Part shown: one piece after another, positions 1-41,420 of the stretch
Layout of the letters: each line of letters opens with the position of its first letter
Position numbering within the stretch: the first letter of the stretch is position 1
Source: Patescibacteria group bacterium
GTDB taxonomy: Bacteria; Patescibacteriota; Dojkabacteria; J137
Length of the DNA: 41,420 nucleotides
Direction of reading: 5' to 3'
Assembly (NCBI GenBank): GCA_016861265.1
Contig: BOLA01000002.1
Coordinates: 1 to 41,420, forward strand
Made by a program: the position numbers and the translations under genes
Notes under the pieces: generated by a model
Databases searched by the model: none
The model's input: only the letters and a program-made list of their open reading frames with translations
What the model was told of the DNA's origin: nothing

Positions 1-127
1 GCCGCTATTATTGCTGCATCCATTTCATTTTTCTTTTTTAATAAATTTAATACATTGATCATAGAACGTATACAATATCAACAAAGTGAAAATTTATCCC
101 TGGATTTTTTTCATATAATCCGGCGTT
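1..127. repeat. Terminal direct repeat, copy 1 (127 bp, identical to 41294-41420); probably an assembler k-mer overlap marking circularity
   Basis: gccgctattattgctgcatcc...catataatccggcgtt at 1-127 is repeated exactly at the contig end; 127 is a standard de Bruijn k-mer size. Confidence 0.95.
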
Positions 128-14701: not shown

Positions 14702-14932
14702 TTAAATTAATTCTTTCTTTATTGCATCCATCGGACAGATAGAAATACATTTTATTTTCTTTAAACCAGCACATTCGTCGCAAATTTCAGTTATAATAAA
14801 AAAATGATCCTTCGAAATCGGCGACATAAATTTCTCTTTTATTTTCAAAACGATGCCAGGTTCATAAATAGCTTCTGTTGGACATTCTACTGCACAGGCT
14901 CCGCAGTTAATGCAATCTTCGGTAATTTTCAT
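14702..14932 (-). CDS. 2x[4Fe-4S] ferredoxin (YfhL-like)
   Basis: CINCGACAVECP and CDECAG...CISICP motifs. Confidence 0.9.
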   Translation of the reverse strand: MKITEDCINCGACAVECPTEAIYEPGIVLKIKEKFMSPISKDHFFIITEICDECAGLKKIKCISICPMDAIKKELI

Positions 14933-15384
14933 TTCACTTCACCTTTGGATTTTACATATTGAATTCGAACAGGTCTGATTCTTCCCCATATTGAATAAAA
15001 AAATAATCCTATAGCTAAAATTTGAAATGTCGAGGCGATCGTTATCCCGATACCTATCCAATCATAAAAGTAAAATCCCTTCATAATCTGGAGTACAAAT
15101 CTTATTAATGTAGTAAATGTCATCGACCAATATGTTATATAGATTAACAGAGGGTTGTATTTTTTATCCTCTTTTTCTGCTTTGGGAAAAAACCACAATG
15201 CAACACCCATAATCATCATCAATACTGAACCTGCTAAAATTATATGTGCATGTGCAGTTATAATTTCTGGATAATAACCCGACTTAAAAACGTATCTAGA
15301 AAAAGACATAAAAAGTCCGCTTAATATTCCAATAATTAAAAATACTATGCTTGTTTTAATAAAATATCTTACTGTTGTAAAAAT
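14929..15384 (-). CDS. Membrane protein (about 4 TM, HAH motif) resembling a heme-copper oxidase subunit I fragment; true start probably at 15384, where ATT replaces ATG
   Basis: Open frame extends 25 codons upstream of the called ATG (IFTTVRYFIKTSIVFLIIGILSGLF), starting 3 nt after the DUF59 stop; TAHAHIILAG...MIMGVALWFFP. Confidence 0.6.
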   Translation of the reverse strand: MFTTVRYFIKTSIVFLIIGILSGLFMSFSRYVFKSGYYPEIITAHAHIILAGSVLMMIMGVALWFFPKAEKEDKKYNPLLIYITYWSMTFTTLIRFVLQIMKGFYFYDWIGIGITIASTFQILAIGLFFYSIWGRIRPVRIQYVKSKGEVK

Positions 15385-15697: not shown

Positions 15698-16963
15698 TTA
15701 CTTCCTGAAAATTGTTATCATATTAAATAGAAAGATTTCAGAACTGATAAACATTATTGAAAATGAAATCAGTATCCCTGTTTCACTTCCAAATGCCAAA
15801 GAGTAAAGAGAGCCGAAAACTGCCGTAATCATTAAATAGAACTCAATCTGTGCAAACTTTTCATTGAACATATCTTTTAACATCGGCACCGGTTCAAGCC
15901 CGACTTTACTGCTGTATTTGTGGTACCAAACAAGAAATGGTACAATCTTGTACATCTGTCCAACAATAAGCATAGAGATGTAACCGAAGATTATCATATA
16001 ACCGTAAATAAGTGTAAGGTTGATAATGTTTTGATATTCAACAAATGCAATAAAAGTTCCGAGTATGGTTGTTAGTCCAAGCATAAGATATGCAACAACA
16101 GAAAACTTAATACCTATATCATACTTTTTTCTAATTCTGTTTTTGAAAATGATACGAATTTGAAGAAGGAAGAAAATTATCCCTAAAACAATTAGTCCAG
16201 TGAATATGTAATAAAGAAACGTTGTATCCTTGTAATGCATAATAGTAGATATCCCAAGTAAGCCTACGTTAAGAATCCAGAAGGCTAGTTTTGCATTTGT
16301 TAAAGGAAAACCATGTGAAAGAGTAAACATTGGAATAAGCTTAAATGAAACTCCCATTATCACCATAGAAACCCAGCCAATGAAAGCAATGTGTGCGTGT
16401 AAATTTAAATATTGAAGATGATCTATCTTTACGTATGGTGTCCATAGATTTATAGCCAGCAAAGGTCCTGCTATCGCGGTTACAATCAAATAGAAAATTG
16501 CCGCTGCAAGATACCACGCAGTAACGTTCCATTTCTTAACGCTTTTCATAGTAATGATTATATTATACGAAAAGATGAACATTGCAAGATTAAGTAGTAC
16601 TGCTGATAATGTCATATTAATTCCAGTATCGAATACCCAGAAACAATATACTAAACCGATTACGCTTGGTAAATAAATCCAGAACTGAATCTCCGCAAGT
16701 TTTTCACTGAACAGTTTTGTTTCGAGAACTACTGGAACAAGTTGAAACATCGCACCGAATATTATCATCGTTATCCAGCCAAGTGTTGCAACGTGATTGA
16801 TTGAAAGAATTTTAGGATTGAAATGATGTCCAACTATTTCAGAATAATTAAAAAGTAAAAGAAAATTTAAAAGCACAAACGAAACAATGGCTGCGATAAA
16901 ATATTTTGCAACTATTCTAAATGGCGGAGCATAAGCAGAAACAATTGATTCGGATTGAATCAC
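15698..16963 (-). CDS. Polytopic membrane protein (about 12 TM) of the heme-copper-oxidase-I-like/NnrS-like family found with DUF2249 genes
   Basis: HVATLGWITMIIFGAMFQLVPV, HAHIAFIGWVSMVIMGV, GQMYKIVPFLVW internal repeats with His in TM helices; no CuB HH motif. Confidence 0.65.
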   Translation of the reverse strand: MIQSESIVSAYAPPFRIVAKYFIAAIVSFVLLNFLLLFNYSEIVGHHFNPKILSINHVATLGWITMIIFGAMFQLVPVVLETKLFSEKLAEIQFWIYLPSVIGLVYCFWVFDTGINMTLSAVLLNLAMFIFSYNIIITMKSVKKWNVTAWYLAAAIFYLIVTAIAGPLLAINLWTPYVKIDHLQYLNLHAHIAFIGWVSMVIMGVSFKLIPMFTLSHGFPLTNAKLAFWILNVGLLGISTIMHYKDTTFLYYIFTGLIVLGIIFFLLQIRIIFKNRIRKKYDIGIKFSVVAYLMLGLTTILGTFIAFVEYQNIINLTLIYGYMIIFGYISMLIVGQMYKIVPFLVWYHKYSSKVGLEPVPMLKDMFNEKFAQIEFYLMITAVFGSLYSLAFGSETGILISFSIMFISSEIFLFNMITIFRK

Positions 16964-17796: not shown

Positions 17797-18020
17797 ACTT
17801 TTGAAATGTTTACACGCCAGACTTCAGGACCACGCTCAACATATTCCCATCCAAACTGGTTTGCTTTTTCTGCCTGAAACTGATAATAAAGCGGAACCGG
17901 ATCATGATCATTAATTAACTGAAAAGCTTCTCCGTTTTTTAGTTCATCGAATGTTTTCATGATGGTTGGATGTTTTTCGCGAGGGACAACAGGACGAATA
18001 TCAAGTTTATTTAATTCCAT
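17793..18020 (-). CDS. Single-domain DUF2249 protein
   Basis: LDIRPVVPREKHPTI...LINDHDPVPLYYQF...GPEVWRV. Confidence 0.85.
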   Translation of the reverse strand: MELNKLDIRPVVPREKHPTIMKTFDELKNGEAFQLINDHDPVPLYYQFQAEKANQFGWEYVERGPEVWRVNISKV

Positions 18021-18053
18021 TTTAAACTCTTTCTAATTTAGGTTTTCTACTTA

Positions 18054-18095
18054 AACCTATTGGTTTTAATATTAGATTTCCTTGACTTAAGTCAG
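18054..18095 (-). promoter_or_regulatory. Crp/Fnr-type box (TTGAC-TTAA-GTCAG, 18082-18095) with a -10-like TAGGTT 22 nt downstream
   Basis: Palindrome 62 bp upstream of the DUF2249 start; same spacing as the 14642 site. Confidence 0.62.
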
Positions 18096-18160
18096 AGTTA
18101 TTATCTTTTAAACAATTAAATTTCGTTTGAATGTAAAGAAGTAAATAGAAGGCAGGATAC

Positions 18161-18855
18161 TTATTTTGCCAGGTCTTTTAATTTTTCAAGATCATTGATA
18201 AAGACAGTTTTACCAGATATGCGAATAATTTCTTCGTCTTGCAATTTTTTGAAGCTCCGAGAAAGAGTTTCTGTTATTGTCCCTAGATACGCAGCAATTG
18301 TTGATTTAGGAACTGTTAATTTTACAAATGGCTCTGGTAATGTTTCTGTTCCTGAAGAATTTATCTCCTTAAGAATGTATTTTGCAAGGCGATTGGGAAC
18401 TTCTTTGGATGAAATATCTTCCAGTTGATTGACTAGTGATTTCATTTTTTTTGAAAATCCCGCCAACATCTTTAATACATATCGGGCTTTTCACTGATAA
18501 GTTTATAAAATCCTTCTTTTGATATAAATATTAATAGAGATTCTTCAAGACTTTGTGCATTAGCTGGATAATTACCTCCATCAAATAAGGGAATATCAGC
18601 AAAAACACTTAACGGTTTCACAATGTGAACAACCGATTCCTTACCCCCTGAGCTAATCTTATAAACTTTTACTGATCCTTTTAATAAAATAAAAAATCCA
18701 TTATAAAAATCACCTTCATGAAAAAGGAAATCATTTTTCTTAAATATTTTAATTTTACTAAAAGAGGTAACTGTTCTTAACTGTTCAATACTTAGTCCAG
18801 AAAATAATGGAAGGTTTTTTAATGTGTCTTTGCCATTGACTATATCATTCATCAC
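18161..18855 (-). pseudogene. Crp/Fnr-family regulator split by a 1-nt frameshift near 18470-18480
   Basis: cNMP-binding domain (18472-18855: LFHEGDFYNGFFILLKGSVKVYK, FDGGNYPANA) followed out of frame by the HTH half (18161-18469: STIAAYLGTITETLSRSF). Confidence 0.85.
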
Positions 18856-18913
18856 ACACTCTGAAAGTCTTATTTCTGATTAAAAAATATAGTTTAATAT
18901 AAGGTTAAAATAA

Positions 18914-18945
18914 AATCCCTCACTGATATAAATCAATAAGGGATT
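18914..18945 (-). terminator. Intrinsic terminator after the oxidase subunit I gene; its core also matches an Fnr/Dnr box (TTGAT-TTAT-ATCAG)
   Basis: Minus strand aatcccttattgat-ttat-atcagtgagggatt forms a 14-bp stem (with G-U pairs) followed by TTATTTT. Confidence 0.6.
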
Positions 18946-18970
18946 CAAATAAGAGGGAAATACTATGATT

Positions 18971-20593
18971 TTATTTTTCCGCGGGCAGCAAATCTTTAGT
19001 ATTTAATTTTGAAGGCATAAAAATCCCAATCACACCTTTTAAACCTACACTCATAACGATATTATAAAAGAATGCAATGAACGCTAATAATAACAGTAAA
19101 CCGCAAAGGCCCGCTAATATCATATAAAAACTATACTCACCATCAAAATAAATTGTACGTCTTAACATTCCTTTTAATCCAGCCATACCCATAAATGCAC
19201 CCATTCCAATTCCGCCTAATAAATGTGCCCAGAAATGGAAGTTGGCTAACTTTTGACTATATAATTTTGCATTATTAGTTACTATAGGAAATAAAAAGTA
19301 AATAGCTGAATAAAGTGTCATTGTTAATCCAACTAATATTGCTACGTGTACGTGCGGGCCAACAATCCATTGAGTGTTATGTAAAATTCTATTCAATCCT
19401 AAATCTGCCTGCATTATTCCAGCCGGTACAGCAAGCGCAAATCCCAACAATCCTCCTAATAAAAACTTTAATGGATTTGTCATCTTTAATGGTCTTGCAC
19501 TCCACAGAGTAATTAATGTAATAAAGAATGCAAGTCCTTGCGTGATAAGCTCAAAAGCTGTTACCATTTCACCAGATAGTATCTTTAAAATTCCTGGCTG
19601 AGCCTGATCTGACATTAAATGATGTGACCAAACCGTCCAGCTAACAACCATCTCAACAAACAAAGCTGCACGAGCCCAGTTTTCCATAAAAAGTTTTTTT
19701 CCGGTAATTAATGTTGCAAGTAAATACCAGGTGCCAGCAACAAAAATTAAAACCAATCCATCAGCAATTAAATCTAAACCCCACCAGAACCAATTTTTAT
19801 AAAGCAATGCATCTATTGAAGAATGTTTTAAACTTGATCCAAGAAGTTCTGCAATCATATAAACTAAAATTAAAACACCTGTAAAAAGTATTATACCTGC
19901 ATTTAAAGCAGTATCAACAGTACCTCTTGCGATTGCAGCAACCGGTAATGAGACCATATGTTCTTTTTTATTTTTTCTAAAAAGATTTTTTAAGCCGCTT
20001 AAACCTAATGCTGAAGCTATTAATCCTTTTCCATCCTGTTTCTCCCAACCTTCCGGTGTGTAAGCAATTGTTCTAAAAATATTAAGGACAAAGAAAACAG
20101 TACCAACCATTATTAAAGCAATACCAAGAATAAAAAATGTACCACCCCAAACGCTAAATTGAGTAAAGTCTGCAGGTAATGGCCAGTACAATGTATAAAG
20201 TGGTGCATAGTGAGTTAAAAATCCTGCAAACCAAAAAGTAAATGTTCCAACTGCAATCAAGCCGCAAGTCCAGTTAGCAAGTTTAATACTCCATAAAGGT
20301 TTGCTCATTAGAAATGGTACAAGAAATAAAAATGCACCAAAAACTATTGAGTAAGTCGAACCAAAAATTCCGACAAGCGGATGTGCAGTAAGCATACCAA
20401 AATATTGGTCAGGTGGTATAGCTGCAATTGGTGTTACCTGGTAAACTCTCATAAGCATTCCTTCAACAAGAGCAAATAAGTAGTAAACCAATCCAACAAC
20501 AACAAACCTTAAAATCATTTTTTGCATTGGAGTAAGTGAATTGGGTTTGAATAAACCTTCTTCTCCATCCATAAAAGTTTGTATAAAATTCAT
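18971..20593 (-). CDS. Heme-copper oxidase superfamily subunit I, B-family-derived, probably gNOR-type nitric oxide reductase
   Basis: Heme ligands LTAHPLVG and HNTQWIVGPHVH; metal ligands WSHH; helix VI reads FWWGLDLIAD where ba3 oxidases have FWWTGHPIVY. Confidence 0.75.
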   Translation of the reverse strand: MNFIQTFMDGEEGLFKPNSLTPMQKMILRFVVVGLVYYLFALVEGMLMRVYQVTPIAAIPPDQYFGMLTAHPLVGIFGSTYSIVFGAFLFLVPFLMSKPLWSIKLANWTCGLIAVGTFTFWFAGFLTHYAPLYTLYWPLPADFTQFSVWGGTFFILGIALIMVGTVFFVLNIFRTIAYTPEGWEKQDGKGLIASALGLSGLKNLFRKNKKEHMVSLPVAAIARGTVDTALNAGIILFTGVLILVYMIAELLGSSLKHSSIDALLYKNWFWWGLDLIADGLVLIFVAGTWYLLATLITGKKLFMENWARAALFVEMVVSWTVWSHHLMSDQAQPGILKILSGEMVTAFELITQGLAFFITLITLWSARPLKMTNPLKFLLGGLLGFALAVPAGIMQADLGLNRILHNTQWIVGPHVHVAILVGLTMTLYSAIYFLFPIVTNNAKLYSQKLANFHFWAHLLGGIGMGAFMGMAGLKGMLRRTIYFDGEYSFYMILAGLCGLLLLLAFIAFFYNIVMSVGLKGVIGIFMPSKLNTKDLLPAEK

Positions 20594-20635
20594 TTGATAA
20601 TCTCTTCTTTTATTAAAAATTTATTTTTGTTTTTT

Positions 20636-21184
20636 TCAATCGATCACTTCAACGACATTTTTTTCAATCATACCAATACCTTTTGGGCCTGAGTACTCAG
20701 TTGATCTGATTGTATAAACGCCGGGTCTATCAAAATGCCAGAGTATATCGTTGTTATGTCCGGGTAAAACCTGCATCTGGAACATCATCGTATTATCCTC
20801 ACGGAATAATCCAAATCCATATGTTAAATCTTCTGAAGTAACATTAAACATTACTTTATCGTTAGTGTTTATAATCATTTTTTCGGAAGGTAAAATAAAT
20901 TTATGATTTGCCACGCTGATATTAAATGTTTTATCAGGGATAATTTCTGCACGGTTCAAATCCAGTGGCTTCCACGGGATTGTTTCGTGTGTAACTATGT
21001 GAAGCGAAACCCCAAGAAGAACGAGAAAGCCTACAAGGGAATAAAATAGCGCAGGTTTAATTTCTCTAGACCCTTCGCTTTTTGTAACATTATAAGCAAA
21101 CCAACCCATAAGCAGCATAATTGCCAGCACATAAAATGTGTACGCAAATGTTTGACCAAAAAGAACTGTATTTGAATCAACCAT
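20636..21184 (-). CDS. Heme-copper oxidase subunit II-like (2 TM + cupredoxin) lacking CuA ligands
   Basis: EDLTYGF (His absent) and STEYSGPKGIGM in place of C-x-E-x-C-G-x2-H-x2-M; directly upstream of subunit I. Confidence 0.8.
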   Translation of the reverse strand: MVDSNTVLFGQTFAYTFYVLAIMLLMGWFAYNVTKSEGSREIKPALFYSLVGFLVLLGVSLHIVTHETIPWKPLDLNRAEIIPDKTFNISVANHKFILPSEKMIINTNDKVMFNVTSEDLTYGFGLFREDNTMMFQMQVLPGHNNDILWHFDRPGVYTIRSTEYSGPKGIGMIEKNVVEVID

Positions 21185-21207
21185 ACCAGGCTCCTTCTAA
21201 AATAAAT

Positions 21208-21235
21208 TTAAATGCTACCCAAACGTAGTATTTAA
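21208..21235. promoter_or_regulatory. Candidate Rrf2 operator upstream of the oxidase operon
   Basis: ttaaatgctac-ccaaac-gtagtatttaa: 11-bp arms with one mismatch, in the 62-bp gap between Rrf2 and subunit II. Confidence 0.4.
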
Positions 21236-21246
21236 GTTTAAATAAA

Positions 21247-21657
21247 TCAATCCTCTTTAGATTTATTGATTAAATCTGACAAACGCGTTTTACTGAGAAT
21301 ATTTATAAGATCTTTCTGCGATCTGATCCATATATCGTGCATTGAACAAGGATTGTCTAAAGCACATTTATCAAAACCAAAAAAACAGCTTGGCTCTTTC
21401 CGAAATCCTTCAACTGCGTCAATGATTTCCGATATTTTAATTTTGCCCGCCTTTTTTGCAAGCAAAAATCCTCCGCTTCTTCCCTGAATACTTTTTATCA
21501 GTCCACTTTTGGAAAGGTCTGTAAGCAATCTCTGCAAATATTTTTTAGGTATTTTAAGTTTTTTATGTAATTCTAGTGATGAATATAATTTTTTATCATC
21601 ACCAGCCATAAGTGCTAAAACTCTTAGTGCATATTCTGTAGTTTTTGAAAAAGTCAT
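21247..21657 (-). CDS. Rrf2-family Fe-S transcriptional regulator (NsrR/IscR-like)
   Basis: TEYALR, SIQGRSGGFLLAK, C-terminal CFFGFDKCALDNPCSMH cluster ligands. Confidence 0.9.
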   Translation of the reverse strand: MTFSKTTEYALRVLALMAGDDKKLYSSLELHKKLKIPKKYLQRLLTDLSKSGLIKSIQGRSGGFLLAKKAGKIKISEIIDAVEGFRKEPSCFFGFDKCALDNPCSMHDIWIRSQKDLINILSKTRLSDLINKSKED

Positions 21658-21681
21658 ATCGATTAAATTATTAACTTATAC

Positions 21682-22047
21682 TTAAAACGTAAACACTTTG
21701 ACCGCTTCAACAGACCACTGAGCAAGTTCACTCATATTGCTTCTTGTGCAGCCTTCAATGAATTGAAGCGTAGCAACTCCACGTGCGTTGATACATCCGC
21801 CGCAAAGTTTTACCTGACCACCTTTATTGATTATGGCTTTTAACATCCTTTCGACGTTATAATATCCTTGTGGTGTGTTTTGGTTTACAAGCGCACCCGT
21901 AACCGCATCTGCCATTAAGAAAACATTAACCTCAACTTCAGATTGTTCTTTGTGGATTGTCATTGCAAGACGACAAGCGTTATAAAATTTTTCTGTACCG
22001 TAAGGTGCATCGTTTATTAAGAATAGTATTTGCACTGTGGACTCCAT
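21682..22047 (-). CDS. DsrE/YchN-family sulfur relay protein
   Basis: INDAPYGTE, VFLMADAV, TPQGYYNVERML, LCGGCINARG. Confidence 0.85.
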   Translation of the reverse strand: MESTVQILFLINDAPYGTEKFYNACRLAMTIHKEQSEVEVNVFLMADAVTGALVNQNTPQGYYNVERMLKAIINKGGQVKLCGGCINARGVATLQFIEGCTRSNMSELAQWSVEAVKVFTF

Positions 22048-22679: not shown

Positions 22680-22717
22680 ATCTTAATCCCCCAAATCGAT
22701 TCATTTAGCTTTTTCTT

Positions 22718-23585
22718 CTACAATTTTAGTTTCTTTTTTGATTTTGTTTTTACCATTAATGGCTGAGTGTATTTTTCATAGAGCTCAAAAAGGAATTCTA
22801 TTCTTTTTGTTTCGTTTGGGAAGGGCTGGGGACGGTAGCATAAATCTACCGCTTTGTCTAATTCCTGATGCGCTTTTACTAATGCCGGCGGCATTGTAAG
22901 AGGATCGTATAAATCTGCAAGACTGCTGTTTGGAAATTCTTTCCTTGTATCTAAAACTTTTTGTGCTTTTTCTTCTACAAGTTTTATTTGTTTGTTTGTT
23001 GGATTTTCCGGCCAAAGAAAGTTGTTGTAAACAATATCGTTTGAATATCTAAATCTGCTTTCTAATCTAACCAAACTTGTTTAACCCAAGCCATAAGCAT
23101 TTCAGAAGTCAATACGCCAAAATGGGACTTAGATGTTTTAGAAATTGAAAGACAACTATCTGCAACGATGTAATCCTTACTGAAGTAACCTAGAGGTATA
23201 TACTTTCTATTTTCAGAAGAATGTCTGGGTAACATAATATAATTTGAATTTGGTTGTCTAATTTCTCCAACTAAAGTTGAGTAAAGTGCTAATTTCTTTG
23301 TCGCCATTCTAACACTATCTGCCCTATGATTTTTAACAGCTTCAATACGTTCCATAACTTTAGTGAAACCTTTAAGCGTACCAGGATCAACATCAATTAA
23401 CCACAAACACCATCGATTAGTATTATTAATAAACTCTTTTACTGATAAAAATGGTTTAATAAATTTATTCAATTCCGGATTTATATTAAGGATTTCTTTC
23501 TTTTCATCATCATTTAATAAAAGAGTGCCACCATCATTAGGCATATTGCCAAAATTAATTTCCGGAACATCGCAAATAGTGTTAG
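22718..23585 (-). pseudogene. C-terminal fragment of an MmeI-like type IIL/IIG restriction-modification enzyme, 5'-truncated and frameshifted near 23070
   Basis: NFGNMPNDGG, EIRQP...PRHSSENRKYIPLGY, HFGVLTS, RLESRFRYSNDIVYNNF, SLADLYDPLTMPPALVKAHQELDKAVDLCY; no nuclease or methyltransferase motifs present. Confidence 0.85.
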
Positions 23586-23950: not shown

Positions 23951-23989
23951 TTTAATTCCTCCAAAGGTTTAGTTTAATATTTTAATCAT

Positions 23990-24376
23990 TTATAAATCGC
24001 TTCTGAAATATTTCTCTCTATACCGTCTTAAATGAACTTTGTTAAAAGATAGGTAAATACATATATCTTCTTGAAATTCACGATAATTATATCCAAGTAT
24101 TTTTACAGCAGTTATGAATGAGCCGTTAGAGATGTATTCACCAAAATATTTTTCAACATAAAACTTCAGCTGAAGACTGTTTTTTAAGTTCTTGAAAGAT
24201 TTATTTGGTTTATAAAACTCAACCAACCAAAAGATGCATTTCTGGATTTCATCTGTAGCATTTAGTAAAGTCTCCCTGCCTCTTATATATTCTGGACTGG
24301 AAATATCTCTGTTAATTCCGTCATAAATCACTTCCGGATAATTATCCAGATATTTTATAATTGTTTCTTTTTCCAT
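23990..24376 (-). CDS. Hypothetical protein of phage/primase-associated type
   Basis: GAGGA Shine-Dalgarno; SLQLKFYVEKYFGEYISNGSFITAVKILGY resembles a motif I associate with primase-linked phage proteins (from memory). Confidence 0.55.
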   Translation of the reverse strand: MEKETIIKYLDNYPEVIYDGINRDISSPEYIRGRETLLNATDEIQKCIFWLVEFYKPNKSFKNLKNSLQLKFYVEKYFGEYISNGSFITAVKILGYNYREFQEDICIYLSFNKVHLRRYREKYFRSDL

Positions 24377-24379
24377 CGT

Positions 24380-24679
24380 TTAATCCTCCTCAGGAAATAT
24401 CAGGTGCTTATAATAAGCTGCTGGAACTGTCCCTCTTTGAACCCCAACATAGATAGCTGACTTGAGATTGACTGGTCTTTGCCAGTTGCAGACTTGACTT
24501 AAGTATCTCAGAGTCGAAGCACTAACATATTCCTTGAGAATTTTGCTTAGCTCTTCAGCTCCTTTGTACATACCGTATCTTATCCATACCTGTTTTACTT
24601 CTTCAAGCCCGATTGTGTTTATTAGTTTTTGAGTGCTGGTGTTTTTTCGTTTTCCTATTTGGTTGATATCCCTAGTCAT
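24380..24679 (-). CDS. Small hypothetical protein, possibly DNA-binding
   Basis: Strong GGAGG Shine-Dalgarno; basic N-terminus; helical AEELSKILKEYVSASTLRYLS segment. Confidence 0.55.
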   Translation of the reverse strand: MTRDINQIGKRKNTSTQKLINTIGLEEVKQVWIRYGMYKGAEELSKILKEYVSASTLRYLSQVCNWQRPVNLKSAIYVGVQRGTVPAAYYKHLIFPEED

Positions 24680-24766
24680 AATTCCCTCCTTAATTTGTTG
24701 TACCTACCTCGGTTTAATCATTCTTTTAATGTCTCTTTGTAGTAGACCTGCCTCCTTCGAAGTTCA

Positions 24767-39839: not shown

Positions 39840-40595
39840 TTACAAAACTTCCCATACTATTTTTGTGAAAATGAAATCAATTATCAAAACGATTACAGAA
39901 GTCAAAACAACTGCATTAATAGTATTTTTTCCCAGTCCTGAAGTGCCACCTTTGGTAGTTAAACCCAAATAGCAACTTATAGTTGAAATAAAAAACGCGA
40001 AGAAAAATGGTTTTAGGAATCCAACAAAAAGATCTTTCATCTTTAATGCTCCAATGGCAGTTTTCCAGAATGAGGAGAAATCAACATGAAATGTCTGGTT
40101 AGCAACGAGCATCCCACCAAGAATTCCCGTAATGTCTGCAATAAGAGTCAACGGTAAAAAAATTAACAGTGCGGCTACCGTTCTTGGAATAACTAATTTC
40201 TGAATTGGATTTGCACCAAATGCTTTTAGTGCATCAATCTGATCACTTAACTGCATCGCGCCTAATTCAGAAGTATTTTTCGCCCCGGTTCTTGCTGCAA
40301 GTAATAAACCGGTAATTATTGGACCAAGTTCTCTAACCATTCCCAACGACATTGTCCTGCTGATCAATGAAGTTGCACCGAAAAGTTTTAATTGATGGCC
40401 AGTTTCTATCGCCAATATTACCCCTGTAAACAACCCACCCAAGAAAATAATCAGGAATGCTTTGCTTCCGATTAAATACATTTCTTGAATTGTTTCTTGC
40501 CAATTATCTTTTATCGAACCGATATTGACAAAAATATCACGGATTAAAACCGTGAATCCTTGCAGCTCTCCAACAATATTTATTAGCCGAGGCAT
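39840..40595 (-). CDS. mlaE: MlaE-family ABC permease
   Basis: VRELGPIITGLLLAARTGA...ELGAMQLSDQIDALKAFGANPIQKLVIPR. Confidence 0.92.
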   Translation of the reverse strand: MPRLINIVGELQGFTVLIRDIFVNIGSIKDNWQETIQEMYLIGSKAFLIIFLGGLFTGVILAIETGHQLKLFGATSLISRTMSLGMVRELGPIITGLLLAARTGAKNTSELGAMQLSDQIDALKAFGANPIQKLVIPRTVAALLIFLPLTLIADITGILGGMLVANQTFHVDFSSFWKTAIGALKMKDLFVGFLKPFFFAFFISTISCYLGLTTKGGTSGLGKNTINAVVLTSVIVLIIDFIFTKIVWEVL

Positions 40596-40596
40596 G

Positions 40597-41355
40597 TTAT
40601 TTACACTCTTTACTGTCAGAAAGATTACTAGTTAAAAATTCTTCCGCTTTTTCAATATCAGAGAGATGATCAACATCAATAATTTTTGAAAAAGGAAATG
40701 CATAAAATCGAAAATCTTTTTGAATAAGAAACCTCAGAAAGTTTCTCAATCTAACAACTCCTGAGTTTACAGCTTCATCAATTTCTTTTTGAATATCTGT
40801 TTTGAACAAATACAAACCGCCTGTTATAAATTCATATCCGTCATTCGAATCTTTAAAATTTGTTATTCTAGTGTTCTCATCTATATCGGCATACACCGGT
40901 TTTTCATCATCAATAAAGTCTGTTACGGCAATTAAACCATCGGCATCTTTTAAGTTCATTCCATAAGTCACAAACGATTTAAACTCAGATTCAAGAAATA
41001 CCGAATCGGCAGTTGTCAGTAGAAATGGAGCTGACAAAAATCTATTTAATTGATATAAGCTGTGTAGAGAGCTTGGGGTAGATTTTACAATTAAATTCAC
41101 TGGTTTACTTCTATTATACTTTAAAAGGAAAGATTCGAGTTCTTCTGACTTTTCATTGATGATACATGTTATTGAAGAATTACCAGTGTTTCTTATAATA
41201 TCTATTATACGTTGTATGATTGGAATGCCATTTATCTCTACTAAAGGTTTTGGCACATTAATCCCTTCTTCTTTTAATCTAAGCCCTTCGCCAGCCGCTA
41301 TTATTGCTGCATCCATTTCATTTTTCTTTTTTAATAAATTTAATACATTGATCAT
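40597..41355 (-). CDS. NTP transferase (IPCT/LicC-like cytidylyltransferase candidate)
   Basis: AAIIAAGEGLRL...PKPLVEING, TTADSVF, IDVDHLSDI. Confidence 0.88.
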   Translation of the reverse strand: MINVLNLLKKKNEMDAAIIAAGEGLRLKEEGINVPKPLVEINGIPIIQRIIDIIRNTGNSSITCIINEKSEELESFLLKYNRSKPVNLIVKSTPSSLHSLYQLNRFLSAPFLLTTADSVFLESEFKSFVTYGMNLKDADGLIAVTDFIDDEKPVYADIDENTRITNFKDSNDGYEFITGGLYLFKTDIQKEIDEAVNSGVVRLRNFLRFLIQKDFRFYAFPFSKIIDVDHLSDIEKAEEFLTSNLSDSKECK

Positions 41356-41420
41356 AGAACGTATACAATATCAACAAAGTGAAAATTTATCCCTGGATTT
41401 TTTTCATATAATCCGGCGTT
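41294..41420. repeat. Terminal direct repeat, copy 2
   Basis: Identical to 1-127. Confidence 0.95.

What the first reader, a model, noticed from the sequence alone, without database searches (positions are those of the whole stretch)
18971..20593. Heme-copper oxidase with Asp replacing both the helix-VI metal-ligand His and the cross-link Tyr
Seen: FWWGLDLIADG, with Asp codons at 19772-19774 and 19760-19762. This aligns by eye to ba3-type FWWTGHPIVY, so His>Asp and Tyr>Asp, while the heme His residues and WSHH are kept. Known: O2-reducing HCOs need the His-Tyr cofactor, and a His>Asp substitution defines the proposed gNOR family of B-family-derived NO reductases. Inference: this is an NO reductase with a 2-His/carboxylate non-heme metal site. 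Its activity is, to my knowledge, little tested, and it would be mis-annotated as cbb3 oxidase.
Basis: partly seen in the sequence, partly recalled or inferred. Interest (0 to 1): 0.72.

Follow-up and report, generated by a model that had tools for sequence, protein, structure and literature searches.

The report
gNOR-type nitric oxide reductase operon
This gene encodes a respiratory-oxidase relative with aspartates in place of the copper-binding histidine and the catalytic tyrosine; it belongs to the published but never purified gNOR family of presumed nitric-oxide reductases, so it is a new member of a known kind.

Summary
ORF 18971-20593 (-) is a 540-aa heme-copper oxidase subunit I with NWFWWGLDLIADG. 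GAT codons lie at 19774-19772 (D274) and 19762-19760 (D278). Heme ligands H71, H414 and H416 and the WSHH pair (H324, H325) are kept. Profile-profile alignment puts D274 on the helix-VI metal-ligand His and D278 on the cross-link Tyr.

Both Asp are invariant in a family of over 3000 bacterial and archaeal proteins, which forms one clade apart from its nearest relatives. The family includes the Persephonella marina EX-H1 protein, 63% identical. Persephonella is one of the genera for which gNOR is listed.

The neighbouring 182-aa subunit II is a cupredoxin with STEYSG in place of the CuA motif CxExC. An Fe-S-type Rrf2 regulator and a conserved palindromic operator (21210-21233) precede the pair.

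All published gNOR hallmarks are met: His>Asp, Tyr>Asp and a CuA-less cupredoxin subunit.

The most likely function is quinol-driven NO reduction to N2O for NO detoxification. This has not been tested biochemically for any family member in the literature I could search.

The parts
18971..20593 (-). gNOR catalytic subunit I (540 aa, 12-13 TM helices, heme-copper oxidase fold)
   Evidence: ORF. Pfam COX1 8e-55. AF2 model pLDDT 82.7, pTM 0.85. Foldseek TM about 0.72 to COX1 and CyoB. 63% identical to Persephonella marina ACO03049.1.
19760..19774 (-). Helix-VI active-site segment D274-L-I-A-D278. D274 replaces the metal-ligand His and D278 replaces the cross-link Tyr.
   Evidence: Sequence. hhalign register. 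Invariant in the family.
19619..19624 (-). H324-H325 (WSHH), the two retained helix-VII metal ligands
   Evidence: Invariant columns in A1 and A2. Aligned to the HH of the oxidase relatives.
20381..20383 (-). H71, axial ligand of the low-spin heme (helix II)
   Evidence: Invariant. Aligns to the TAHG/TxH heme-ligand motif.
19346..19354 (-). H414-V-H416, helix-X ligands of the high-spin and low-spin hemes
   Evidence: Invariant. Aligned to HFH of the relatives.
19550..19552 (-). E348, an invariant carboxylate on helix VIII. It is a candidate third carboxylate near the metal site or part of a proton path (inference).
   Evidence: Invariant column. Its position on helix VIII comes from the model's helix 334-365. 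The role is inferred.
20636..21184 (-). gNOR subunit II: two TM helices plus a cupredoxin domain without CuA
   Evidence: Weak Pfam COX2 and NCBIfam CoxB hits. AF2 pLDDT 87.3. Foldseek best matches are bo3 CyoA and the ba3 CuA domain. 47% identical to the gene upstream of the Persephonella subunit I.
20687..20704 (-). S161-T-E-Y-S-G166, occupying the place of the CuA motif CxExCG (both Cys are Ser)
   Evidence: Invariant in all 74 subunit II sequences extracted from the related loci and in alignment A4.
21210..21233 (.). Palindromic operator AAATACTAC-N6-GTAGCATTT, 25 nt upstream of the subunit II start codon. Its centre reads TAcgTTTG, a Bacteroidetes-type -7 box.
   Evidence: The only match in the window. 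The core ATnnTAC-N6-GTAnnAT occurs 25 times in 851 kb of related loci. 23 of these lie in the control region of Rrf2-bearing cassettes (23 of 50), and none lie in the 24 cassettes without Rrf2.
21247..21657 (-). Rrf2-family regulator with Fe-S ligand set C91, C98, C104, H107
   Evidence: Pfam Rrf2 3e-29. The four ligands are conserved in 51 of 51 cassette-linked Rrf2 proteins. The gene lies directly upstream of subunit II in 51 of 80 loci.
21682..22047 (-). DsrE-like protein upstream of Rrf2 (local context only)
   Evidence: Pfam DsrE 1.6e-19. Found next to the cassette in only 2 of 80 loci.
18161..18855 (-). Crp/Fnr-family regulator gene split by a 1-nt frameshift near 18470
   Evidence: cNMP_binding and HTH_Crp_2 fall on two ORFs. 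The gene is intact in L001. The frameshifted sequence is identical in contigs of four independent metagenome runs.

Best explanation
The two genes 20636-21184 and 18971-20593 encode a gNOR, a two-subunit member of the heme-copper oxidoreductase superfamily.

Shown here:
- Subunit I keeps both heme-ligand sets and two of the three metal-ligand histidines.
- It has Asp274 where the helix-VI histidine sits and Asp278 where the cross-linked tyrosine sits.
- Subunit II is a membrane-anchored cupredoxin that has lost the CuA cysteines and histidines.
- The pair is preceded by an Fe-S-type Rrf2 regulator and a conserved palindromic operator that overlaps the likely promoter.

Inferred:
- The binuclear centre is a high-spin heme plus a non-heme iron held by His324, His325 and Asp274. 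Asp278, and perhaps Glu348, supply further carboxylates, as the glutamates do in cNOR.
- Without the His-Tyr cofactor the site cannot carry out four-electron O2 reduction, but it can reduce 2 NO to N2O.
- Electrons probably come from menaquinol through the low-spin heme, because there is neither CuA nor a cytochrome c domain.
- The Rrf2 protein represses the operon until NO damages its Fe-S cluster.
- In this sludge Ignavibacteriaceae organism the cassette therefore serves mainly as an inducible NO-detoxification and N2O-producing module.
For: - Fold, ligands and motif.
- Register of D274 on His and D278 on Tyr: hhalign, with a link to ba3.
- Published gNOR definition: His>Asp, cupredoxin subunit without CuA, possible quinol use (PMC11214002); 'D' at the Tyr site and the genera Sulfurimonas, Sulfurovum and Persephonella (PMC8756737 Table A4).
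- The Persephonella marina EX-H1 protein ACO03049.1 has the same motif and is 63% identical over its full length. Its upstream gene is 47% identical to subunit II and carries STEYSGPKG.
- All 70 D/D sequences form one clade with SH-aLRT support of 100, apart from the seven nearest other oxidases.
- Subunit II fold and loss of CuA ligands.
- Rrf2 linkage (51 of 80 loci), Fe-S ligands (51 of 51) and an operator confined to Rrf2-bearing cassettes.
- Strong purifying selection: amino-acid identity stays at 80-85% while third-position GC runs from 24% to 96% across host phyla.
- Fragments identical to the operon occur in sludge RNA libraries from several studies.
- E44 aligns with the quinol-binding Asp75 region of bo3 and aa3-600 (the bo3 residue numbering is from my own knowledge).
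Against: - No gNOR has been purified or assayed in any paper I could find, so NO reduction, the identity of the metal and the electron donor are all inferences.
- One HMMER alignment shifts the register by one residue.
- No nitrite reductase, nosZ or other denitrification gene lies in the window, and the whole-genome search tool was shut (footer), so the physiological source of NO is unknown.
- The RNA evidence consists of low-depth contigs and could be DNA carry-over.
- The Rrf2 ligand set (3 Cys plus His107) resembles IscR as much as NsrR, so NO sensing is not proven.
Confidence: 0.75

Rival explanations
1. The enzyme carries out chemistry other than NO to N2O at its heme/2-His/2-Asp site. 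Candidates are NO dismutation, N2O or hydroxylamine turnover, or a sulfide-tolerant or sulfur-linked reaction.
For: No member has been assayed. The family is reported mostly from sulfidic habitats (PMC11214002). Here it lies beside DsrE-like and TusA-like/DUF2249 genes. Related HCO branches have been proposed to be NO dismutases or N2O reductases.
Against: The DsrE and DUF2249 neighbours are not conserved with the cassette: DsrE is adjacent in 2 of 80 loci and DUF2249 in 1 of 80. The conserved partner is an Fe-S Rrf2 regulator, the type used for NO and Fe-S stress. According to Murali et al., a synthetic mimic of the gNOR site reduces NO. This organism is common in activated sludge, which is not a specifically sulfidic habitat.
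Confidence: 0.12
2. It is an O2-reducing terminal oxidase (B-family or cbb3-type, as databases name it) that uses an unusual copper site.
For: [quoted passage not shown] The overall fold and heme ligands are those of oxidases. The Arg pair R478/R479 that binds heme propionates is kept.
Against: The His-Tyr cofactor that all O2-reducing HCOs need is absent in every one of the members examined. The cbb3 model TIGR00780 scores 47.7 bits against a cutoff of 583, and CtaD scores 99 against 671. There are no CcoO/CcoP or cytochrome c genes nearby. Subunit II has no CuA.
Confidence: 0.04
3. It is a decaying or non-catalytic oxidase relic, and the Asp substitutions are loss-of-function changes.
For: Two catalytic residues of the parent enzymes are lost, and the neighbouring Crp/Fnr gene is frameshifted.
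Against: D274 and D278 are invariant across bacteria and archaea. Amino-acid identity stays at 80-85% while synonymous sites are saturated, with GC3 from 24% to 96%. The ORFs are intact in 80 of 80 loci. Identical fragments occur in RNA libraries.
Confidence: 0.02

Closest known systems
gNOR family of the heme-copper oxidoreductase superfamily (Sievert et al. 2008; Hemp & Gennis 2008; Murali et al. PNAS 2024, PMC11214002)
   Same: Asp replaces an active-site His and Asp sits at the Tyr position. Subunit II is a cupredoxin without CuA. The family occurs in Bacteria and Archaea. The window protein is 63% identical to the Persephonella marina member and sits in the same clade.
   Different: The host and habitat differ: an Ignavibacteriaceae organism abundant in activated sludge and bioreactors, not a sulfidic vent or cave. 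The I. album type strain was reported to lack gNOR (PMC3362086). Here the pair is preceded by an Rrf2 regulator and operator that the Persephonella and Nitrosophilus loci lack; those loci have a third, unnamed gene of about 196 aa downstream instead.
cNOR / qNOR (NorB; e.g. Pseudomonas aeruginosa cNOR, Geobacillus qNOR)
   Same: The presumed reaction is the same (2 NO to N2O). Both would have a heme plus non-heme iron centre with carboxylates one helical turn after the helix-VI ligand, and neither has the cross-link Tyr. Like qNOR, gNOR probably uses quinol.
   Different: No NorB structure was matched at E<0.001 by the family profile, so the lineage is different. cNOR and qNOR keep all three His and add Glu, whereas gNOR replaces one His with Asp. 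The gNOR partner subunit is a cupredoxin, not a heme c protein or a fused N-terminal domain.
E. coli cytochrome bo3 and B. subtilis aa3-600 quinol oxidases (A-family)
   Same: These are the best solved-structure matches by family profile (1e-27 and 2e-23). Their subunit II has two TM helices and a CuA-less cupredoxin, and it is the top fold match for the window's subunit II. The invariant E44 aligns with the quinol-site Asp of helix I.
   Different: They are O2 reductases with an intact His-Tyr and CuB site and with D and K proton channels. Only about 18% identity to the model.
Thermus thermophilus ba3 oxidase and B-family-derived NORs (eNOR, bNOR, sNOR, nNOR)
   Same: These are the published sister groups of gNOR. 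The FWW-x-G-H-x-x-x-Y segment aligns without gaps to FWWGLDLIAD. The ba3 CuA domain superposes on subunit II at 2.7 A over 103 columns.
   Different: All of them keep the helix-VI His and, according to Murali et al., have CuA-containing secondary subunits (Table A4 gives N for sNOR and the Bacillus CuANor, Q for eNOR). ba3 is a weaker profile match (1e-17) than the A-family quinol oxidases. ba3 subunit II has a single TM helix (my own knowledge).

Membership tests
gNOR | Heme-copper oxidase subunit I fold with both heme-ligand sets retained | tested here: met
   Pfam COX1 8e-55. H71, H414 and H416 invariant. AF2 plus Foldseek give TM about 0.72 to COX1 and CyoB.
gNOR | One of the three active-site metal-ligand His replaced by Asp (Murali 2024) | tested here: met
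   D274 aligns to the His of GHPxVY in hhalign, with transitive support from ba3. It is invariant in the family. Caveat: one HMMER alignment is shifted by one residue, and no 3D distances could be measured.
gNOR | Asp at the position of the cross-link Tyr ('D' in Table A4 of PMC8756737, modified from Hemp & Gennis 2008) | tested here: met
   D278 aligns to the Tyr of GHPxVY and is invariant.
gNOR | [quoted passage not shown] | tested here: met
   STEYSG stands in place of CxExCG in all 74 subunit II sequences extracted, and TYGF in place of xHGF. The AF2 model has 2 TM helices plus a beta-sandwich. The best fold matches are CyoA and the ba3 CuA domain.
gNOR | Groups with sequences from organisms named as gNOR carriers (Sulfurimonas, Sulfurovum, Persephonella, Ca. 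Methylomirabilis) | tested here: met
   Persephonella marina EX-H1 ACO03049.1/WP_012675288.1 is 63% identical with the same motif. The window's subclade is sister to the Persephonella and Nitrosophilus sequences, and the whole D/D family is one clade. Caveat: I could not read a paper that names this accession. The link rests on the genus list and on the motif being unique to gNOR. DAMO_1118 was not retrieved.
gNOR | Closest relatives are B-family oxidases | tested here: inconclusive
   The nearest non-family proteins include ba3-like sequences (P0189, best solved match ba3). However, the family profile and the fold search rank A-family quinol and cytochrome c oxidases above ba3. No tree with labelled A, B, C and NOR references could be built.
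gNOR | Conserved residues able to bind quinol | tested here: inconclusive
   The invariant E44 aligns with the helix-I Asp of the bo3 and aa3-600 quinol site. The positions matching bo3 R71, H98 and Q101 are not conserved. The published residue list (ref 23 of Murali 2024) was not available to me.
gNOR | NO reductase activity | not testable with these tools
   This needs purified enzyme. No assay of any gNOR was found in the literature searched.
cbb3-type (C-family) cytochrome c oxidase (the database name) | CcoN-type subunit I passing the family model, with CcoO/CcoP heme c subunits and a His-Tyr cofactor | tested here: not met
   TIGR00780 scores 47.7 bits against a cutoff of 583. No heme c subunit genes lie nearby. 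The His and Tyr are absent.
B-family O2 reductase (ba3-type) | Helix-VI His cross-linked to Tyr four residues later, and CuA in subunit II | tested here: not met
   D274 and D278 occupy these positions. The subunit II Cys and His ligands are absent.
cNOR / qNOR | NorB-type subunit with three His plus Glu around FeB, and a heme c subunit or fused quinol domain | tested here: not met
   No NorB chain is among the 52 PDB sequences matched at E<0.001. Only two His are retained, and the partner is a cupredoxin.

The most novel reading that the evidence does not exclude
The heme/2-His/2-Asp enzyme is not a simple NO detoxifier. One possibility is an energy-conserving (electrogenic) menaquinol:NO oxidoreductase. 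The other is an enzyme with a different substrate or product (for example NO dismutation or sulfide-insensitive N-oxide chemistry). In either case it has spread as a compact Rrf2-controlled cassette across at least six phyla and would be an overlooked N2O source or sink in wastewater communities.
Probability: 0.15. Interest if true: 0.7.

Novelty: new member of a known kind. Interest (0 to 1): 0.3.

Why it matters
gNOR is one of several proposed NO-reductase families that may account for a large share of environmental N2O production, yet no member has been assayed. This copy adds nothing new in kind. It does show that an almost invariant gNOR subclade, with its own Fe-S repressor and operator, sits in an Ignavibacteriaceae population. 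Exact-word matches place that population in sludge, biofilm and bioreactor metagenomes from at least 12 studies. Databases label the protein as a cbb3 oxidase, so denitrification and N2O gene inventories of wastewater systems will miss it. The extreme amino-acid conservation across hosts from 32% to 70% GC marks it as a good candidate for the first biochemical and structural study of the family.

Tried and rejected
- HMMER alignment of the family profile to aa3-600 and bo3 put L273 on His and A277 on Tyr by inserting a residue inside helix VI. I rejected this in favour of the hhalign register, which has no gap within the W-to-Tyr segment (one gap column follows the Tyr) and preserves the W(i)/His(i+4)/Tyr(i+8) face.
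- NCBIfam has no model that passes its cutoff for this protein or for other family members.
- The single-sequence PDB search gave only weak cbb3 and aa3 hits.
- The Sulfurimonas genome paper (PMC2258580) and the supplements of Murali 2024 are not held. The published accession lists and curated HMMs could therefore not be used.
- The genome search and the fetch from genomes were shut (footer). The rest of the genome could not be screened for nir, nos or other nor genes.
- AF2 coordinates are not exposed to the Python box, so ligand geometry was not measured.
- I considered that the cross-phylum hits were mislabelled MAGs. I rejected this because locus GC (32-70%) and gene GC3 (24-96%) follow the labelled host. 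L005 is the one exception.
- I considered that the Crp/Fnr frameshift was an assembly error. I rejected this because four independent runs carry the identical sequence.
Full report
**Observation**

The minus-strand ORF 18971-20593 encodes 540 aa. Read on the minus strand, 19780-19760 is ggt tta GAT tta att gct GAT. The two Asp codons therefore lie at 19774-19772 (D274) and 19762-19760 (D278), within NWFWWGLDLIADG, exactly as reported. Pfam COX1 matches residues 26-496 at 8e-55. WSHH (H324, H325), H71 and H414-x-H416 are present.

**Is the alignment to His and Tyr right?**

I built two family alignments of 25 and 59 diverse members, with identity to the window protein down to about 41%. The invariant columns include W270 W271 G272 L273 D274, A277 D278 G279, W322 S323 H324 H325, H71, H414, H416 and R478 R479.

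Profile-profile comparison with the seven nearest non-family oxidases aligns IDALLYKNWFWWGLDLIADG with IDPLLAKNMLWFFGHPVVY. This places D274 on His and D278 on Tyr, with no gap before the Tyr. One of those relatives, P0189, has Thermus ba3 as its best solved match, and its GHPVVY aligns with the ba3 GHPIVY.

A plain HMMER alignment to aa3-600 shifts the register by one residue by opening an insertion inside the helix. I regard that as an artefact of matching 'WG'. An AF2 model of good quality (pLDDT 82.7, pTM 0.85) has the oxidase fold, with TM about 0.72 to COX1 and CyoB.

**What family is it?**

The 1.84-billion-protein representative search shows an isolated family. Full-length hits run at 75% and 46% identity (E 1e-263 and 1e-115). 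Then there is a gap to ordinary oxidases at 26-32% identity (E 1e-25 and weaker). Those oxidases carry GHPxVY, or H-x3-N in two cases.

Word-indexed searches give more than 3000 family members from Bacteria and Archaea. Labelled sources include Ignavibacteria, Bacteroidota, Nitrospirota, Nitrospinota, Chloroflexota, Actinobacteria, Thermoprotei and Methanomethylicia.

The literature defines gNOR as follows:
- It is the only heme-copper family in which an active-site His is replaced, by Asp.
- Its cupredoxin subunit lacks the CuA residues.
- It may use quinol, and it is found mostly in sulfidic settings (PMC11214002).
- Table A4 of PMC8756737 lists 'D' as the gNOR residue at the Tyr site and gives the genera Sulfurimonas, Sulfurovum and Persephonella.

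The third search returned the Persephonella marina EX-H1 protein (ACO03049.1 / WP_012675288.1 / UniRef100_C0QTR7), together with Persephonella atlantica and Nitrosophilus alvini proteins. All carry FWWGLDLIADG. The window protein is 63% identical to the P. marina protein over its full length.

In a maximum-likelihood tree the 70 D/D sequences form one clade with SH-aLRT support of 100. The window sits in a tight Ignavibacteria/Bacteroidota subclade that is sister to the Persephonella and Nitrosophilus sequences. Membership in gNOR is therefore well supported.

[quoted passage not shown] No NCBIfam model passes its cutoff: ccoN scores 47.7 bits against 583, and CtaD 99 against 671.

**Subunit II**

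The upstream 182-aa ORF (20636-21184) gives only weak COX2 and CoxB hits. Its AF2 model (pLDDT 87.3) has two TM helices and a beta-sandwich. The best fold matches are E. coli bo3 CyoA and the ba3 CuA domain, the latter at 2.7 A over 103 columns.

The CuA motif CxExCGxxHxxM reads STEYSGPKGIGM. RSTEYSG is invariant in all 74 orthologues extracted. The gene upstream of the Persephonella subunit I is 47% identical and also has STEYSGPKG.

**Regulation**

An Rrf2 gene (21247-21657) lies directly upstream of subunit II in 51 of 80 related loci. All 51 keep C91, C98, C104 and H107, an Fe-S ligand set.

Between Rrf2 and subunit II lies the palindrome AAATACTAC-N6-GTAGCATTT (21210-21233). It is the only such site in the window.

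The core ATnnTAC-N6-GTAnnAT occurs 25 times in 851 kb of related loci:
- 23 of the 25 fall in the control region of Rrf2-bearing cassettes, that is in 23 of 50 such cassettes.
- They sit at fixed offsets, either 28-39 nt before the subunit II start or just before Rrf2.
- None occur in the 24 cassettes without Rrf2.

In the window the centre of the palindrome reads TAcgTTTG, the Bacteroidetes-type -7 promoter element (my own knowledge). This suggests repression by promoter occlusion, which is an inference.

**Conservation and spread**

Within the window's subclade the protein stays 77-98% identical across loci labelled Ignavibacteriota, Bacteroidota, Acidobacteriota, Spirochaetota and Planctomycetota. 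Locus GC runs from 32% to 70%, and the gene's third-position GC runs from 24% to 96%, following the host. The labels are therefore credible, the gene has taken on each host's base composition, and the protein is under very strong purifying selection.

Subunit I is far better conserved than its neighbours. Between the window and L001, subunit I is 98% identical, against 66-73% for the Crp/Fnr protein.

**Habitat and expression**

Exact-word matches show the 18000-21700 stretch at full coverage in 20 sludge, biofilm and bioreactor metagenome runs from 12 studies. Short contigs with no differences from the window, covering the operon, occur in RNA libraries from four studies. This is compatible with transcription, but depth is low and DNA carry-over cannot be excluded.

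**Mechanism**

Shown: the ligand set, the loss of CuA, and the Rrf2/operator linkage.

Inferred:
- The centre is a heme plus non-heme iron held by H324, H325 and D274. D278 occupies the place of the FeB-binding Glu of cNOR, one helical turn after the helix-VI ligand. The invariant E348 on helix VIII is a possible third carboxylate or proton relay.
- The enzyme reduces 2 NO to N2O with electrons from menaquinol through the low-spin heme.
- Expression is induced when NO disrupts the Rrf2 cluster.

The invariant E44 aligns with the quinol-site Asp of bo3 and aa3-600, but the other bo3 quinol residues are not conserved. No NorB structure matches the family profile at E<0.001. If gNOR is an NO reductase, it became one independently of cNOR and qNOR, as Murali et al. 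propose.

**Points that did not fit neatly**

Published trees place gNOR next to the B-family. In my searches the best solved matches by profile are the A-family quinol oxidases aa3-600 and bo3 (1e-27 and 2e-23, against 1e-17 for ba3). Fold search also ranks A-family subunits first. Without labelled reference sequences I could not resolve this.

**Comparison with earlier notes of this scan**

Several earlier agents reached the same gNOR verdict for Bacteroidales, Campylobacterota and other genomes, and reported an Rrf2 operator. I treated these as leads and re-derived each point independently here.

**Verdict**

The feature is a new member of a known but biochemically untested family. Interest is modest (0.3).

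Noticed in passing
window 18161-18855 (-), frameshift near 18470: The Crp/Fnr-family regulator downstream of gNOR is split into cNMP-binding and HTH ORFs by a 1-nt frameshift (...PDMY* then MLAGFSKK...). The orthologue in L001 is intact. The frameshifted sequence is identical, with no differences or gaps, in contigs of four independent metagenome runs from different studies. It is therefore real in this population and not an assembly error.
   Followed up: yes
window 1-127 and 41294-41420; 24404-24750: The first and last 127 nt are identical, which is the signature of a contig closed as a circle at k=127. In four independent runs the contigs carrying 1-900 extend 4-13 kb beyond position 1. None of them carries 40400-41293 at 97% or better. 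All four assemblies fork at 24750, and depth roughly doubles over 24404-24750 in X5 and rises less in the other three runs. The circle may be an assembly path through a repeat or a strain-specific arrangement.
   Followed up: partly
window 15698-16963 (-) and 14929-15309 (-): Two membrane proteins of 421 aa and 126 aa match only the C-terminal helices of Pfam COX1 (5e-12 and 2.5e-07). A homologue of the 126-aa protein lies immediately upstream of subunit II, in place of Rrf2, in L040, L053 and L072. There it sits together with Crp/Fnr and DUF6448 genes, and with a hemerythrin gene in L040 and L072. These could be accessory or assembly partners of gNOR.
   Followed up: partly
related loci L001-L080 (subunit I genes): Third-position GC of the gNOR gene ranges from 24% (Ignavibacteriaceae) to 96% (Vicinamibacterales), while amino-acid identity to the window stays at 80-85%. 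This is unusually strong protein conservation for a membrane enzyme spread across phyla.
   Followed up: yes
L005 (contig labelled uncultured Chloroflexia): The gene GC is 36.9% (GC3 27.6%) against a flank GC of 51.5%, and the protein is 89% identical to the window. This points to either a recent transfer from an Ignavibacteria-like donor or a chimeric or mis-binned contig.
   Followed up: no
window 22718-23544 (-): Two adjacent ORFs carry MmeI target-recognition and C-terminal domains only. This looks like the broken 3' end of a type IIL restriction-modification gene. A 43-nt imperfect direct repeat lies at 22708 and 22965.
   Followed up: no
window 23971-24385: In three of four metagenome runs a contig replaces 413 nt of the window with 404 other letters. 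This is a polymorphic segment next to the iteron-like region noted by another first-stage finding.
   Followed up: no
L081/L082 9665-10255 and L083 9705-10298: In Persephonella and Nitrosophilus a conserved gene of about 196 aa with no Pfam hit follows gNOR subunit I directly, and there is no Rrf2. It may be a third subunit or an assembly factor specific to that subclade.
   Followed up: no
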